Assembly: GCA_964373755.1 (NCBI GenBank)
Contig: CAYJVV010000001.1
Span: 1 to 26,729, forward strand
Direction: 5' to 3'
Length of the DNA stretch: 26,729 nucleotides
Source of the DNA: an uncultured archaeon
Lineage (GTDB): Archaea; Aenigmatarchaeota; Aenigmatarchaeia; GW2011-AR5
Position 1 is the stretch's first letter, and each line of letters starts with the position of its first letter. The notes under the pieces were generated by a model. It saw only the letters and a list, made by a program, of their open reading frames with translations. It had not been told where the DNA came from and did not search any database. The position numbers and the translations under genes were made by a program. Shown in pieces: positions 16,197 to 24,449 of the stretch.

Positions 16197-17543
16197 CTAA
16201 TGCATTCTGCCTTTGTGCAGTTCAAGACCATGTGCTGTCGAGAATTGCTTCTTGCAGACAAGGCAGGAGAATCCTTGGAGTTTCACGCGCTCTTTTTTCC
16301 TTAAGCCCATTGTCCTGAAAGGATAATTTACAGGATTTTTTATTGTTATCCTTTCCGTTCTGCCCTTGCATACAATATCTGGTTGGCATATCCCAATGTC
16401 TTTGTAGTACATCGCAACATCACAGTTTGCCGGTGGTTTTGCTGCGTACTGCTGTTGATAGCGCAGCTGAGCAATAACATAATTTCTGGGAAGTGGTGGT
16501 TTGTTCTTTTCATTCGACTGAAATACCTTGTCCTCTATTTCTTCCCATTTCCAGTTCATCGTTTTCAGGAAATTTATCAGTACGAAAAGGCTTCTTTTCC
16601 TGCCGTCTTGCATCCCTGAAAGAACGAGTTTAATACATGGCGGGAAGAGTTCTTCTCCTATCTTTTTCTCCCATTGTATCCTTGGCTTTTCAGTTTCCTT
16701 TTTTTTCTCTTTTTTTCGCATAGCATGCCAGTCCATAGCAGCAAGAAATAGCGACTCGGCAGAGTTTTCCTCGGATACAAAGAATTCCGTTTCGGTCTCA
16801 ATTTTTTCAGGCCTTGCGGCTGATTCTGAAAATGTCATTATGTCTTTAGAGCTTATTGGCAACGATACCAGCCAAGTCTTTTCATTAAAGCTGTAAGGAG
16901 CACGAAACATGTGTCGTACTCCCCAGTTTTTCTCTACTTCAACAAAATAAAATGGATTAAGTTTGCTTGGCGGCTCGGCCAGCGAGTTTATGAGTTCAAT
17001 TGCCCCTTTTGATTTAACAAGTTCGCTCATGAGTTTTTTTGCTATTTTTTTCCTTATGTAAGCAGTCAAGATTCTGGGGGCATCTGGGTAAAGTTTTTGC
17101 AGAGGCTTGTAATCTACCTCCTTGGGGAAGCTTTCCCAAGGTAAACACAAATGGAAACCCCTTCTCCCAGAGAACTTTATACCATAATTCTTGATTCCAT
17201 GCTTTCTAAACAGTTTGCAGATAAGCATTGCGGTTATTTTTGACTCTTCCAAGCTGATTTTTGAGTCTATGTCTATTATCAGGTCCCATCCAGTGCGCAG
17301 TTTTTCATAATTATCCTGACGCAATGCCATTGGGTTGCTCCAGCGTTCAACAGAGAGATGGAATGAAGTCACTCCATTTTTAGCCATCTGGAATACATCT
17401 GTAGGAAACTGAAGGATGTTAGGTCTCTTGTCGTATGAACCGTCCCAGAAAGCACCAGCAATTTCACGGTTCTTTGAGCTTTTGACTAAAAAATCAGCTA
17501 CATCTTTCCTGGAGTAGTATTCAAGGATCTTTTGGCGGTTCAT
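16197..17543 (-). CDS. priSL: Fused DNA primase PriS-PriL with a C-terminal C2H2 zinc finger
   Basis: PriS motifs DLIIDID and KFSGRRGFHL; PriL-CTD Fe-S region FPPCIK...DGRKR.LF.LINFL...PANC...ICQPD.VC; terminal CLVC-x12-H-x4-H. Confidence 0.92.
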   Translation of the reverse strand: MNRQKILEYYSRKDVADFLVKSSKNREIAGAFWDGSYDKRPNILQFPTDVFQMAKNGVTSFHLSVERWSNPMALRQDNYEKLRTGWDLIIDIDSKISLEESKITAMLICKLFRKHGIKNYGIKFSGRRGFHLCLPWESFPKEVDYKPLQKLYPDAPRILTAYIRKKIAKKLMSELVKSKGAIELINSLAEPPSKLNPFYFVEVEKNWGVRHMFRAPYSFNEKTWLVSLPISSKDIMTFSESAARPEKIETETEFFVSEENSAESLFLAAMDWHAMRKKEKKKETEKPRIQWEKKIGEELFPPCIKLVLSGMQDGRKRSLFVLINFLKTMNWKWEEIEDKVFQSNEKNKPPLPRNYVIAQLRYQQQYAAKPPANCDVAMYYKDIGICQPDIVCKGRTERITIKNPVNYPFRTMGLRKKERVKLQGFSCLVCKKQFSTAHGLELHKGRMH

Positions 17544-20550: not shown

Positions 20551-20673
20551 ACTTTCTTAGGCAAAAATACATTTAAAAGTTAACTTAAGTGAATTTTTAT
20601 ACTTTTGAACTAACACGCTTAGTTCTTTACAGATATTATTATATATACTATTTACAGGAAGTATATTTTGTAT

Positions 20674-20847
20674 ATGTCAGAAAATAATAACCACATGTCT
20701 ACAATACGTATCTCCAAGAAAGCAAAAAAGATGCTTGAAGCTTTCGGACGGTTTTCTGATACTTATGAGATTATAATTGTGAAATTAGCTGAACACTACA
20801 AAAACTGCAAAAAGCACAGAAAGGTGAAAAATAATGGTACGTCTTGA
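20674..20847 (+). CDS. Small ribbon-helix-helix (RHH/antitoxin-like) DNA-binding protein
   Basis: Hand translation: MSENNNHMSTIRISKKAKKMLEAFGRFSDTYEIIIVKLAEHYKNCKKHRKVKNNGTS. STIRIS (beta strand)...DTYEIII fits the archaeal T(I)xISxExKxxL...eTYdxII pattern. Overlaps smc by 14 nt; start could be 20695. Confidence 0.7.
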   Translation: MSENNNHMSTIRISKKAKKMLEAFGRFSDTYEIIIVKLAEHYKNCKKHRKVKNNGTS

Positions 20848-23257
20848 GAGGATAACTATGCAGGGCTTCAAGAGCTTTGCTGGCAAGGTTACAATTCCAT
20901 TTCCTGCAGGCTTCAATATCGTGTGTGGACCAAACGGCACAGGTAAGTCTAACATAGTCGACGCGCTGACGTTTGTCTTGGGCACCTCGTCTGCAAGAAG
21001 CATTCGAGCACAAAAACTTCAGAATCTTATCTTCAACGGTGGCACTGACAAGAAACCAGCTGAATTTTGTGAAGTTACTCTTTATTTGGACAATTCTGAC
21101 AACAAAATACCGATAAACGAAAATGAAGTCAAGGTCACGAGAAGAATAACGCGCTCCGGGATAAGCATCTACAAGCTCAACGGCCGGACAGTTACAAGGA
21201 GCAAGATACAAGATTTGCTGGCAAACGCAAACATGTCTTCTGACGGCTATAACATCATAATGCAGGGTGATGTTACCAAGATAATCGAGATGGGCCTGCA
21301 GGAAAGAAGGGAGATAATAGATGAAGTTGCTGGTATAAAGGAATTTGATGAGAAGCGTGAGAAAGCAACAAGAGAACTGGAGCGCGTCGAACTTCGTGTC
21401 AGAGAAAATATGATCGTTGTTGCTGAGAAACAGAAATATGTTCAGCGACTGAAGTCAGAAAAGGAAAATGCTGAAAAGTACGCGAATTTCAGCGAAAAAC
21501 TGCAAATTTATCGCGCATCACTGCTGCACAAAAAACTAGCAGAAGCAGAAGAAAAGGCAGGAATAATAGACAAGGAAATCGATGAAAAAACTTCGCTTTT
21601 TGAAGAAAAATCTAAGATATTTACAGAATCGGAGAAAGATTTGGAAACAAAGGAAAAGTTGATGAGGAAAATAGACGAGGAAATAATGCAGAAGACAAAA
21701 AATATTGATATCCTAAGAAAAGCTGATGCTATTCGAACAGAGATACTCAGGAAGAAAGATAGGATAGACTTTAACGAGAGAGAAATATCTAGATTAAAGG
21801 AATTCGAAACGCCTGAAAGGAACATTGCGATAAAGGAGATACTTAACATGAAGTCTCCTGGAATTCATGGAACCCTTGATTCTTTAATTGGTGCTCCAAG
21901 CGAATATTCTACAGCAATCGAAGTAGCAGTAGGCAGGCATTCAAAAGACATCGTCGTTTCAGATCATGAAATAGCCACAAGCTGCATAAAGCACTTGAAA
22001 GCGAGGAAAATTGGGCGTGCTCGCTTCCTGCCGCTGGACAGGATAAGAGGAAGAGAAAAGAAGGAGTACAAAGGAAAGGAAAATATTATTGGCTATGCCA
22101 TAGATTTGGTGAAATACAATAGAAAATTCTCACCTGCTGTAGAATTCGTTCTTGGCTCTACTATTGTTGTGAAAAATATAGACATTGCAAAGAAAATAAA
22201 AGGCTATCGTGTCGTGACTTTAGACGGCGATCTAGTCGAACCGTCAGGAGCTATGATAGGCGGATTCTATAGGAAAACGCACCGTGAATCTTTTGCACCC
22301 AAAATAAGGCAGCTTGAAGAAGATAGCGAGAAACTCGAAGACGAAATAAGTGCCTTGGACAAGGAATTAGGGAAATATAATTTACAGGATGAAGGAGAGA
22401 CTGCAAATGTACGCGAAGACAAGGTCAAAATAGAAAAAGAAATCGAGATTGCTAGAAAGAAATGGAAAGAAATGTTCGAGGAAAAGATGATCCAGCAGAA
22501 TGGCATAAGCAGGTTAAAGATCGAAAAAGCGAGAATAGAAGCTAACCTCGAAAACCTGAATATTGAAATGGAAGAGTTCAAAGATGTCAAGGATTTTGAA
22601 GAAGGATCAATTGATGTTCTGCAAGAAAAAGTGAGGTATTTTGTAACAGAGATTAACAGACTTGGCCCCGTGAATATGAAAGCAATAGAAGAGTACAAGA
22701 CAATAAATGTGGAATTCGAAGAATTGAAAAAAAACCTCAATAAATTGCTTGAAGAGAAAAATGCGATAGTGAGTATAGCAGAAGACGTTGAGAAGAAAAG
22801 ATATGACAAATTTATGGAAACTTTCAACGAGATAGCAGCCAAGTTCTCAACAACTTATTATGATATGGCAGGCGGTACTGGAAGATTAAGGCTTGAAGAA
22901 GAAAACAAAATTGATTCCGGGCTAATTATCGAAGCTAGTCCATCAGGGAAGAAAGTTCTGAATTTGGATAGCATGTCTGGCGGGGAAAAAACACTGACGT
23001 CTCTTGCGTTTCTTTTTGCCATCCTCCAACATTATCTGACACCATTTTACGTGCTAGATGAAGTTGATGCGGCTTTGGACAAGGCAAACACAAAGAAGAT
23101 AGCAGATCTCATAAAGAAATACTCGAAAAGCGTTCAGTTCATCGTAATAAGTCACAACGACCTTACAATAGCCGAAGCAGACAAAGTTTTCGGTGTGTCA
23201 ATGGAAAACGGCGTGTCAAAGGTTTTTGGAATAGAATTGCCCGTGGCGAGTGAATAG
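20834..23257 (+). CDS. smc: Chromosome segregation protein SMC, short form (807 aa)
   Basis: GPNGTGKSN, hinge (GIHGTL...IGRARFLPLD...VTLDGDLVEPSGAMIGG), GPVN, MSGGEKT, YVLDEVDAALD, ISHN. Confidence 0.96.
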   Translation: MVRLERITMQGFKSFAGKVTIPFPAGFNIVCGPNGTGKSNIVDALTFVLGTSSARSIRAQKLQNLIFNGGTDKKPAEFCEVTLYLDNSDNKIPINENEVKVTRRITRSGISIYKLNGRTVTRSKIQDLLANANMSSDGYNIIMQGDVTKIIEMGLQERREIIDEVAGIKEFDEKREKATRELERVELRVRENMIVVAEKQKYVQRLKSEKENAEKYANFSEKLQIYRASLLHKKLAEAEEKAGIIDKEIDEKTSLFEEKSKIFTESEKDLETKEKLMRKIDEEIMQKTKNIDILRKADAIRTEILRKKDRIDFNEREISRLKEFETPERNIAIKEILNMKSPGIHGTLDSLIGAPSEYSTAIEVAVGRHSKDIVVSDHEIATSCIKHLKARKIGRARFLPLDRIRGREKKEYKGKENIIGYAIDLVKYNRKFSPAVEFVLGSTIVVKNIDIAKKIKGYRVVTLDGDLVEPSGAMIGGFYRKTHRESFAPKIRQLEEDSEKLEDEISALDKELGKYNLQDEGETANVREDKVKIEKEIEIARKKWKEMFEEKMIQQNGISRLKIEKARIEANLENLNIEMEEFKDVKDFEEGSIDVLQEKVRYFVTEINRLGPVNMKAIEEYKTINVEFEELKKNLNKLLEEKNAIVSIAEDVEKKRYDKFMETFNEIAAKFSTTYYDMAGGTGRLRLEEENKIDSGLIIEASPSGKKVLNLDSMSGGEKTLTSLAFLFAILQHYLTPFYVLDEVDAALDKANTKKIADLIKKYSKSVQFIVISHNDLTIAEADKVFGVSMENGVSKVFGIELPVASE

Positions 23258-23259
23258 AA

Positions 23260-23919
23260 ATGGTAGATGAAGCTAGATTGATAAGGACAATAGTATTGGG
23301 TGCGGACTGGCAGGAAGTACTAGAAAATATAATTGTCGAAGAGGACCTGAATCCTCTTGTAATAGATCTTGTAAAACTTTCGGACGCCTTCATGAATTAT
23401 ATGCAGGAAATAAAGAAATTTGATTTTCGCATACCAGCCAGGTTCATACTTGTAGCCGCAATACTACTGAGAATGAAGTGTGAGCTGCTTTTGGAGGAAG
23501 AGGAAGAAAAAGCAAGAAAAGAAATAGAAAAACTTCCAGAGATAAGCCTAGAGAACATACCACAACTGTCTGCACCACTTATAAGAAAACCTATAAGGAA
23601 GGTAACGCTTTCAGAGCTGATAACTGCGCTGAACAAAGCCTTGGAATTCAAGGAGAAGAAAGAAACTAAGCAGATAAGGCTTAGAAGAGCAGTTGAAACA
23701 CTTATCGAGCCTGAAGAGGATGTAGAGATAAAGATCTCCACTCTGCTTGGAAAGATTTCAAAAGCTGGCGAAATAAAGTTCTCCGATCTTGTTCCAGATT
23801 GGAAAAGGAATGAAATAGTCGACACGTTCATGCCGCTTTTGTACCTCTGCATGCGCAGCAGGATTTACTGTGATCAGCCTGAAATGTTCAAGGAGATATT
23901 CATCAAAATTCGTGAGTAA
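23260..23919 (+). CDS. scpA: Segregation and condensation protein A (kleisin)
   Basis: W...L..II.EEDLNP..IDLVKLSDAF, ARFILVAAILLRMKCE, VTLSELITAL, VDTFMPLLYL. Confidence 0.92.
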   Translation: MVDEARLIRTIVLGADWQEVLENIIVEEDLNPLVIDLVKLSDAFMNYMQEIKKFDFRIPARFILVAAILLRMKCELLLEEEEEKARKEIEKLPEISLENIPQLSAPLIRKPIRKVTLSELITALNKALEFKEKKETKQIRLRRAVETLIEPEEDVEIKISTLLGKISKAGEIKFSDLVPDWKRNEIVDTFMPLLYLCMRSRIYCDQPEMFKEIFIKIRE

Positions 23920-23927
23920 GATTTTCC

Positions 23928-24449
23928 ATGAATGAGAAAACGCAGCAAAGGCTTGCATTGCTTGAAGCGGCTCTTTTCACAACTACGGAACCCTTGAATA
24001 TGGAAGATCTCCAGAAGACAACTAAGATAAGGCGAGAAGAACTAGAAAAACTGGTGAAGATATTAGAAGAAAAATATTCGTCAGCTGAGAGCGGCATAAA
24101 ACTTTCAACTGTTGGCGGTTACAGGCTAATGGTTAAGGAAGCCTTTGAGGAAAAAGTTTCTCATCTCACTCCACATGCCGATCTTTCCCGTGGCTTGCTG
24201 AGAGTACTTTCAATTATAGCTTATCACGAGCCTATAAAGCAGGCAGATATTGTGAAGATAGTTGGCAACCGCGTTTATGATTATGTGAAAGAACTTGAGG
24301 GAAAAGGTCTAGTTAAGACTGAGAAAAAGTCAAGAACAAAGATCCTTTCATTAACACCACAATTCGAGGAATATTTTGGCGTGAAGAAGAAATTCCTGAA
24401 GGAAAAAATAGACGAATTTGACAATGACAAGCAGGATAAACAAGAATAA
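23928..24449 (+). CDS. scpB: Segregation and condensation protein B
   Basis: LLEAALFTTTEPL, LSRGLLRVLSIIAYHEPIKQADIVKIVG, YFG. Confidence 0.95.
   Translation: MNEKTQQRLALLEAALFTTTEPLNMEDLQKTTKIRREELEKLVKILEEKYSSAESGIKLSTVGGYRLMVKEAFEEKVSHLTPHADLSRGLLRVLSIIAYHEPIKQADIVKIVGNRVYDYVKELEGKGLVKTEKKSRTKILSLTPQFEEYFGVKKKFLKEKIDEFDNDKQDKQE

What the first reader, a model, noticed from the sequence alone, without database searches (positions are those of the whole stretch)
20834..23257. Natural mini-SMC: 807 aa with both coiled-coil arms roughly halved
Head, hinge (about aa 330-480) and all ATPase motifs are intact in one ORF, with cognate scpA and scpB. The N-arm spans only about aa 170-325 and the C-arm is similarly short. 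Canonical prokaryotic SMC is about 1170-1190 aa, so roughly 185 aa are missing per arm. From recall (not verified here), functional SMC arm length is quantised with a period near 90 aa, which would make this a two-period deletion. Symmetric shortening argues against an assembly error.
Basis: partly seen in the sequence, partly recalled or inferred. Interest (0 to 1): 0.65.

Follow-up and report, generated by a model that had tools for sequence, protein, structure and literature searches.

The report
Natural half-armed SMC condensin operon
This is a genuine, intact chromosome-organising SMC protein whose two coiled-coil arms are half the usual length; that build is the normal state of its whole archaeal phylum and of a few other lineages, so it is a useful natural variant, not an error or a one-off.

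Summary
ORF 20834-23257 encodes an 807-aa SMC with all ATPase motifs, a full hinge, and scpA and scpB directly downstream. It is the only SMC in an 816-kb, 91%-complete archaeal genome.

Against a profile of long archaeal SMCs it skips 183 positions on the N strand and 184 on the C strand. That is about two of the 91-aa periods reported by Burmann et al. 2017. The head-proximal joint and the hinge-proximal coiled coil are kept.

It is not an assembly artefact. 193 of 201 sampled genomes of the same phylum (Aenigmatarchaeota by database names) carry an SMC, and the frames listed are about 800-880 aa. Arm length is held to 154.5 +/- 3 aa.

Novelty is limited. Burmann 2017 already listed a possible minor mode of natural Smc arms at 163 aa. 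This scan has also met the same protein on other DNA.

Two things are added here. Nanohaloarchaeota share the build. So does the bacterial phylum Bipolaricaulota, whose SMC nests inside the archaeal half-armed clade (AU tests), which points to inter-domain transfer. Micrarchaeota, with equally small genomes, keep long arms.

Verdict: real, functional, a member of a known but uncharacterised length class. Interest is moderate.

The parts
20834..23257 (+). smc: 807-aa SMC (condensin ATPase) with half-length arms
   Evidence: TIGR02169 scores 734.5 bits. The best solved relative is the Pyrococcus yayanosii Smc head plus joint, 5xei, E 1.5e-111.
20834..21337 (+). N-terminal half of the ATPase head (aa 1-168): Walker A at 32-39, Q-loop Q144
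   Evidence: alignment to 5xei over aa 3-239.
21338..21805 (+). N-terminal arm helix (aa 169-324, about 156 aa, roughly 23 nm if straight), with a break at aa 288-291
   Evidence: AlphaFold model on 121 sequences. The profile of long SMCs is skipped for 183 positions next to this strand.
21806..22294 (+). Hinge dimerisation domain (aa about 325-487; Pfam hinge 342-455; conserved G465, G476, G477)
   Evidence: alignment to the Pyrococcus hinge 4rsj over aa 287-542.
22295..22768 (+). C-terminal arm strand (aa 488 to about 645; boundary approximate). Break at 516-523 pairs with the N-strand break. Joint-like interruptions at 581-592 and 611-616 (LGPVN motif at 610).
   Evidence: 184 profile positions are skipped between aa 513 and 521. 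5xei aligns from aa 559.
22769..23254 (+). C-terminal half of the ATPase head (aa about 646-807): signature S715-G-G, Walker B D742-E743, H774
23260..23919 (+). scpA (kleisin), 219 aa; starts 3 nt after the smc stop
   Evidence: PF02616, E 9.6e-13.
23928..24449 (+). scpB (kite), 173 aa
   Evidence: PF04079, E 5e-35; TIGR00281 93.6 bits against a cut-off of 89.2.
20668..20847 (+). Small ORF (57-59 aa) that overlaps the smc start by 14 nt. It may be a first gene of the operon. Function not tested here.
   Evidence: ORF list; an earlier scan note calls it RHH-like.

Best explanation
The gene encodes the cell's single, functional SMC subunit of an Smc-ScpAB condensin whose arms carry about 155 residues per strand instead of about 335.

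Shown here:
- The two head halves, the hinge, the head-proximal joint region and about 35 residues of hinge-proximal coiled coil are kept.
- The middle of the arm, about 183 residues on each strand, is absent. That equals two of the 91-aa periods that govern which arm lengths work in B. subtilis.

Inferred:
- Because a whole number of coiled-coil superhelical turns is removed from both strands, head and hinge keep their relative orientation.
- The two arms of the hinge-joined homodimer can therefore still zip into a rod of about 23-25 nm, against 47-49 nm for the canonical protein.
- ScpA then bridges the neck of one head and the cap of the other, and ScpB binds ScpA.
- ATP binding and hydrolysis open and close the smaller ring to hold and move DNA. 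The lumen, and probably the step, would be about half the canonical size.

Evolution: the build is an inherited, length-constrained trait of Aenigmatarchaeota. It is shared with Nanohaloarchaeota and, most likely through gene transfer, with the bacterial phylum Bipolaricaulota.
For: - Identity as SMC with its partners.
- Sole SMC in the genome.
- Catalytic and hinge residues invariant in 121 homologues.
- Symmetric skip of 183 and 184 profile positions.
- Motif spacings of 176/133 aa against 362/312 in the closest full-length relative.
- Model at pLDDT 84.5 with paired breaks at 288-291 and 516-523 and joint-like breaks at 581-592 and 611-616. The best fold match is the Pyrococcus head plus joint.
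- Clade norm: more than 100 homologues at 52-88% identity are nearly all 790-826 aa, and the roughly 1330-1370-aa ones carry intein domains. 193 of 201 phylum genomes carry an SMC, and the frames listed are about 800-880 aa.
- Arm length is tightly held: 154.5 +/- 3.2 aa (n=119). It is 170.0 +/- 2.3 (n=120) in the Bipolaricaulota type and 335 +/- 4.5 (n=37) in long forms.
[quoted passage not shown] My anchors read Bacillales Smc as 336-338 where that paper gives 344. On its scale, 154.5 therefore becomes about 162.
Against: - No experiment shows activity; rod formation, ring size and step size are all inferred.
- In the B. subtilis screen no construct shorter than about 253 aa was functional, so this length class has no experimental precedent.
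- Alignment inside coiled coils is fuzzy, so the exact deleted segment cannot be fixed to the residue. The profile places the N-strand gap at the hinge, while the model's break lies 35 aa earlier.
- The TIGR02169 score clears its cut-off by only 5 bits, as expected when a third of the profile is unmatched.
- The Bipolaricaulota type is 15 aa per strand longer than the Aenigmatarchaeota type, so its loss is 1.8 periods, not 2.0.
Confidence: 0.9

Rival explanations
1. Assembly artefact: a collapsed or chimeric assembly removed part of a normal 1170-aa smc gene.
For: The genome is a draft of 98 contigs, and reads cannot be inspected here.
Against: The same collinear protein of about 800 aa occurs on hundreds of independent contigs from different sources, some up to 918 kb long. 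193 of 201 sampled genomes of the phylum carry an SMC of this build. The loss is in frame and equal on both strands.
Confidence: 0.01
2. It is an SMC-like paralogue (Rad50, archaea-specific SMC-related protein, Smc5/6-like) or a decaying relic, not the working condensin.
For: The short length resembles that of SMC-like proteins. The TIGR02169 score is only just above its cut-off.
Against: A full SMC hinge is present. There are no hits above cut-off to ASRP (94.7 bits against 300) or Rad50 (80 against 700). scpA and scpB are adjacent. It is the only SMC in the genome, and a separate Rad50-Mre11 pair lies elsewhere. All catalytic residues are invariant across the clade.
Confidence: 0.04
They were not invented once and then inherited or transferred.
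For: Two other short forms branch apart from the main clade: P0144, labelled Undinarchaeota, and P0165. The Bipolaricaulota and Nanohaloarchaeota arms are 15 aa longer per strand than the Aenigmatarchaeota arms. In a mixture-model tree, the bacterial outgroup attached among the short lineages.
Against: With the arm columns left out, the three lineages form one group (94% SH-aLRT; inner nodes 98 and 100) nested among long archaeal SMCs. Trees that take Bipolaricaulota out of that group are rejected, with p-AU of 0.004, 0.0098 and 3e-92. The operon order smc-scpA-scpB is shared.
Confidence: 0.2

Closest known systems
Canonical prokaryotic Smc of Smc-ScpAB (B. subtilis Smc, Pyrococcus Smc; NCBIfam TIGR02169/TIGR02168)
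   Same: Head, hinge, joint region, all ATPase motifs, and the ScpA kleisin and ScpB kite partners. The Pyrococcus head fragment aligns at E 1.5e-111.
   Different: Arms have about 155 residues per strand instead of about 335-344. 183 and 184 profile positions in the middle of the arm are absent. The expected rod is about 23-25 nm instead of 47-49 nm.
Engineered Mini-Smc of B. subtilis and the natural arm-length modes of Burmann et al. 2017 (PMC5344682)
   Same: Same design: the hinge with a short hinge-proximal coil sits on a shortened head-proximal arm. The length falls on the periodic ladder (341 minus two times 91) and on their 'possible minor mode' at 163 aa.
   Different: The shortest functional B. 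subtilis constructs had arms of 253-267 aa, and nothing near 160 aa worked. Here that length is the fixed natural state of whole phyla. The paper does not name the taxa behind the 163-aa mode, and its Table S4 is not held as text.
Hinge-less short-armed SMCs (CPR bacteria, SAR86, archaeal Smc5/6-like) noted earlier in this scan
   Same: Short arms and an intact ATPase head.
   Different: Those lack the hinge. This protein keeps a complete, conserved hinge.
Eukaryotic Smc5/6
   Same: A natural SMC with arms one step shorter than cohesin or condensin (mode at 272 aa).
   Different: Different subfamily and partners. Its arms are one period shorter, not two.

Membership tests
Smc of Smc-ScpAB (TIGR02169 SMC_prok_A) | Split ABC-type ATPase head with Walker A, Q-loop, signature, Walker B and H-loop | tested here: met
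   Motifs at aa 32, 143, 714, 741 and 772, invariant in 121 homologues; SMC_N E 4.5e-72.
Smc of Smc-ScpAB (TIGR02169 SMC_prok_A) | SMC hinge domain with conserved glycines | tested here: met
   PF06470 over aa 342-455, E 1.3e-31; G465, G476 and G477 invariant; aligns to hinge structures 4rsj, 3nwc and 1gxl.
Smc of Smc-ScpAB (TIGR02169 SMC_prok_A) | Score above the curated equivalog cut-off | tested here: met
   734.5 bits against 729.4, so narrowly met.
Smc of Smc-ScpAB (TIGR02169 SMC_prok_A) | Kleisin ScpA and kite ScpB partners encoded | tested here: met
   Adjacent downstream genes with PF02616 and PF04079.
Smc of Smc-ScpAB (TIGR02169 SMC_prok_A) | Long antiparallel coiled-coil arm of about 340 residues per strand | tested here: not met
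   A coiled-coil arm is present but has about 155 residues per strand. This is the point of the finding. Arm length is typical of the family, not what decides membership.
Smc of Smc-ScpAB (TIGR02169 SMC_prok_A) | Head-proximal joint interrupting the C-terminal strand | tested here: met
   Aligns to the Pyrococcus head-plus-joint crystal construct over aa 3-239 and 559-804. The model shows loops at 581-592 and 611-616. The joint is defined in PMC5526789.
Smc of Smc-ScpAB (TIGR02169 SMC_prok_A) | ATP-dependent DNA entrapment or loop extrusion | not testable with these tools
   Needs biochemistry.
Natural short-arm class (163-aa mode of Burmann 2017) | Mean of the N and C linker lengths near 163 aa, with the two strands within 75% of each other | tested here: met
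   Mean of 154.5 aa by my anchors. The same anchors give 336-338 for Bacillales, where the paper gives 344 for B. subtilis. On its scale this is about 162. The strands measure 176 and 133 aa, a ratio of 0.76.
Rad50 / archaea-specific SMC-related protein | Zinc hook, or family score above cut-off | tested here: not met
   There is no CxxC hook. Rad50 models score at most 80 bits against 700 or more, and ASRP scores 94.7 against 300. The genome has its own Rad50 elsewhere.

The most novel reading that the evidence does not exclude
The half-armed Smc-ScpAB is one ancient invention: a clean loss of two coiled-coil periods on both strands. It has been inherited through a large part of the DPANN archaea (Aenigmatarchaeota, Nanohaloarchaeota). 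It was also transferred as an smc-scpA-scpB operon into the bacterial phylum Bipolaricaulota, where it is the only SMC. If so, a motor with arms of about 23 nm and no mid-arm region serves bacterial genomes of 1-2.8 Mb as well as archaeal genomes of 0.5-1.3 Mb. It would be the natural proof of the periodic arm-length rule at a length that failed in the B. subtilis screen.
Probability: 0.5. Interest if true: 0.6.

Novelty: new member of a known kind. Interest (0 to 1): 0.42.

Why it matters
SMC arm length is thought to be tuned in steps of one coiled-coil superhelical turn. The only experimental support is a B. subtilis resizing screen, in which nothing shorter than about 253 residues worked.

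Whole phyla that live with 155-170-residue arms, held to within 2-3 residues, give a natural test of that rule. They also ask how much arm a loop-extruding or DNA-entrapping SMC really needs, since the mid-arm region is gone.

A complex this compact (2 x 807 + 219 + 2 x 173 residues) would be a convenient object for cryo-EM and single-molecule work. Some carriers, such as Candidatus Nanohalobium constans, are named organisms whose SMC lies on contigs of about 1 Mb.

The apparent transfer into Bipolaricaulota would show that the short motor works across domains.

Tried and rejected
- AlphaFold on the single sequence gave an unusable model (pLDDT 44.6). It was replaced by the 121-sequence run.
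- Table S4 of Burmann 2017, which would name the taxa behind the 163-aa mode, is held only as a 550-character stub. A search of the supplements for archaeal names found nothing.
- Literature searches for Aenigmarchaeota plus SMC, DPANN plus ScpA, 'mini-SMC' and 'shorter coiled' found no description of natural half-armed SMCs.
Context in Bipolaricaulota was taken from genome-search loci instead.
It still gave handles for other phyla.
- NCBI organism labels on some MAG proteins were misleading: 'Heimdallarchaeota' and 'Thermotogae' for what the other names and sigma-70 genes show to be Bipolaricaulota.
- A second treekit clade test returned numbers identical to the first, so I treated it as a cached repeat and ignored it. 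My own IQ-TREE runs replaced it.
- A mixture-model tree on the final taxon set was killed for memory. The final tree and AU tests therefore use site-homogeneous models.
- Rejected idea: short arms as a simple by-product of genome or cell reduction. Micrarchaeota (0.5-1.3 Mb) keep 1100-1206-aa SMCs, and Bipolaricaulota (1-2.8 Mb) have the short form.
Full report
**The observation**

The ORF at 20834-23257 on the + strand is open and gives 807 residues.
- Pfam finds SMC_N across aa 4-795 and a complete SMC hinge at aa 342-455.
- NCBIfam's archaeal-type equivalog TIGR02169 scores 734.5 bits, just over its 729.4 cut-off.
- The best solved relatives are Pyrococcus Smc fragments. The head-plus-joint construct 5xei aligns at E 1.5e-111 over aa 3-239 and 559-804. 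The hinge construct 4rsj aligns over aa 287-542.
- Walker A, Q-loop, signature, Walker B, H-loop and the hinge glycines are all present. They are invariant in an alignment of 121 homologues.
- scpA (219 aa) starts 3 nt after the smc stop, and scpB (173 aa) follows.
- A search of the whole 816-kb, 91%-complete genome finds no second SMC.
- Neighbouring genes are archaeal in type: ribosomal protein S15 with the S13/S15 N-domain, a geranylgeranyl reductase-like enzyme, and a fused primase.

**How much is missing, and where**

I measured two spacings between conserved motifs. The N strand runs from EVAGI to the hinge GIHG. The C strand runs from the hinge GG to LGPVN.

| Class | N strand (aa) | C strand (aa) |
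|---|---|---|
| This protein | 176 | 133 |
| Closest full-length relative | 362 | 312 |
| Long forms in general | 346-366 | 300-323 |

A profile built from 37 long archaeal SMCs (1182 positions) aligns to the protein in three blocks: 1-325, 509-706 and 891-1175. It therefore skips 183 positions on the N strand and 184 on the C strand.

The AlphaFold model built on 121 sequences (mean pLDDT 84.5) has these elements:
- An N helix at 169-287 and 292-324.
- The hinge at 331-485.
- C helices at 488-515, 524-580, 593-610 and 617-679.

The low-confidence breaks at 288-291 and 516-523 lie at matching distances from the hinge. They probably mark where the hinge-proximal stub meets the head-proximal part. 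The loops at 581-592 and 611-616 fit the 'joint' described for B. subtilis and Pyrococcus Smc (PMC5526789). Foldseek's top match is the Pyrococcus head plus joint.

So the protein keeps the head, neck, joint, about 35 residues of hinge-proximal coil and the hinge. It lacks the middle of the arm. The exact residues removed cannot be fixed, because alignments inside coiled coils are ambiguous.

**The periodicity claim**

Burmann et al. 2017 (PMC5344682) resized the B. subtilis arm and reported the following:
- Function only at arm lengths of 253-267, 330-373 and 407-435 aa, with a Fourier period of 91 aa.

My anchors read Bacillales Smc as 336-338 aa where that paper gives 344 for B. subtilis. 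The 154.5-aa mean arm of this protein therefore corresponds to about 162 on their scale, which is the 163-aa minor mode. The loss relative to long archaeal forms (335 aa) is 180.5 aa, or 2.0 periods.

Among the 136 nearest cluster representatives measured, the arm classes are discrete:

| Mean arm (aa) | Number of representatives |
|---|---|
| 161 | 29 |
| 228 | 3 |
| 257 | 1 |
| 308 | 25 |
| 333 | 76 |

Nothing lies between 180 and 220 aa. The 945-963-aa proteins skip about one period per strand.

**Artefact or norm?**

It is the norm.
- More than 100 homologues at 52-88% identity are nearly all 790-826 aa. They are named Aenigmarchaeota or Aenigmatarchaeota where a name exists. The relatives of about 1330-1370 aa carry intein domains on top of the same short frame.
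- In 201 genomes drawn evenly from the phylum, 193 have an SMC, and the frames listed are about 800-880 aa.
- Arm length is held to 154.5 +/- 3.2 aa over 119 sequences.
- This excludes assembly collapse and argues for purifying selection on length.

**Who else has it**

- Nanohaloarchaeota: relatives of P0143 are all 827-876 aa, or about 1380-1396 aa with an intein. They include Candidatus Nanohalobium constans, Nanosalina and Nanohalococcus. This agrees with an earlier follow-up in this scan.
- One Undinarchaeota-labelled protein is 833 aa.
- Unexpectedly, the bacterial phylum Bipolaricaulota (Acetothermia) has it too.
  - Relatives of P0206 at 68-92% identity are nearly all 837-848 aa (one is 887 aa) and carry those names.
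  - 81 of 101 genomes of that phylum match P0206, most of them collinearly over its full length.
  - These genomes carry five or six sigma-70 genes. In two of the three genomes checked, these all lie on the same contig as the SMC.
  - The short SMC is their only SMC hit.
  - It scores higher on the archaeal-type profile and is closest to Pyrococcus Smc.
  - It heads the same smc-scpA-scpB operon, with ScpA 30% and ScpB 38% identical to the window's.
- By contrast, 40 of 41 sampled genomes of the Micrarchaeota phylum (0.5-1.3 Mb) have an SMC, and those not cut by a contig end are 1100-1206 aa (one frame is 1331 aa). This count includes one unpublished genome, G333.
- So short arms are not a general by-product of small genomes.

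**Phylogeny**

Trees were built on the globular domains only, with the arm columns removed.

The tree with named rows places the groups as follows:
- Aenigmatarchaeota form a group at 98% SH-aLRT.
- Their sister group (98%) contains Nanohaloarchaeota and the Bipolaricaulota genomes as sisters (100%).
- The whole short clade (94%) is nested among long archaeal SMCs.
- The Undinarchaeota-labelled protein and one other short form branch elsewhere.

AU tests reject three alternative trees:

| Constrained tree | p-AU |
|---|---|
| Bipolaricaulota with ordinary bacterial SMCs | 0.004 |
| All archaeal rows as one clade without Bipolaricaulota | 0.0098 |
| The archaeal short forms as one clade without Bipolaricaulota | 3e-92 |

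Caveats:
- The models are site-homogeneous and the searches short.
- The groups were named after a first tree had been seen.
- Few bacterial sequences were included.
- An earlier mixture-model tree with fewer named rows attached the bacterial outgroup among the short lineages. The constraint holding them together nevertheless had the higher likelihood.
- With that smaller set, grouping the Bipolaricaulota-type sequences with bacteria was only marginally rejected (p 0.036).

I read this as good, though not final, evidence for one origin of the short build within DPANN archaea and a transfer into Bipolaricaulota.

**How it most likely works**

Shown: a complete SMC with kleisin and kite partners, and arms shortened equally on both strands by two periods.

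Inferred from the B. subtilis and Pyrococcus work:
- Removing whole superhelical turns keeps head and hinge in phase.
- The homodimer can therefore still form a rod, about 23-25 nm long with about three instead of seven arm-arm contacts.
- It can still open on ATP-driven head engagement and entrap or translocate on DNA, with a smaller lumen.
- No activity was or could be tested here.

**Novelty and score**

The protein is an ordinary member of a length class that was already visible in a published histogram. That class has not, in the papers I could search, been tied to a clade or studied. This scan has also met the same build on other DNA several times.

The added value is fourfold:
- A clean 183/184 mapping of the missing length.
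- The tight length constraint within each clade.
- The contrast with Micrarchaeota, which keep long arms.
- The nesting of a bacterial phylum inside the archaeal short clade.

Interest is moderate.

Noticed in passing
L094:1501-5305 (a Bipolaricaulota genome); also L093, L099-L106: The bacterial phylum Bipolaricaulota (Acetothermia) carries a hinge-bearing SMC of about 840 aa, of archaeal type, in an smc-scpA-scpB operon. It was the only SMC hit in the three genomes checked. In trees it is sister to Nanohaloarchaeota inside the archaeal half-armed clade, and AU tests reject placing it with bacteria. This looks like an inter-domain operon transfer.
   Followed up: yes
G000 contig 4, L002:304-3522: The same genome's Rad50 is only 673 aa and has a CVVC zinc hook near aa 344. 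It lies next to an Mre11-like phosphoesterase. The archaeal Rad50 profile has 878 positions, so its arms are also about 100 aa per strand shorter.
   Followed up: partly
window 20668-20847: A small ORF (57-59 aa) overlaps the smc start codon by 14 nt. Earlier scan notes call it RHH-like and report it upstream of smc in related genomes. I did not test its fold or its conservation.
   Followed up: no
relatives P0015, P0036, P0038, P0042, P0123, P0127 and nanohaloarchaeal P0466, P0477: Many half-armed SMCs of about 1330-1396 aa carry an intein with a LAGLIDADG endonuclease (PF14528, PF14890). It is inserted near the Walker A region, since alignment to the query resumes at about aa 24-37.
   Followed up: no
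window 16197-17543 (- strand): A 447-aa ORF has weak Pfam hits to both the small and the large primase subunits (E 5e-05 and 3e-04). It may be a fused PriS-PriL primase.
   Followed up: no
P0147, P0149, P0154; L008: A class of SMCs of 943-963 aa, plus a Clostridium MAG protein with spacings of 256/215 aa, lacks about one period per strand (95-108 profile positions). This matches the 238-aa mode. These proteins sit next to full-length relatives in the tree, which suggests repeated one-period losses.
   Followed up: partly
L029, L044, L078, L025: Several bacterial SMC loci pulled in by the pattern scan (Anaerolineae, Spirochaetales, Azambacteria, Omnitrophota MAGs) gave no credible match to the hinge anchors. 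They are probably hinge-less SMCs of the kind other agents in this scan described.
   Followed up: no
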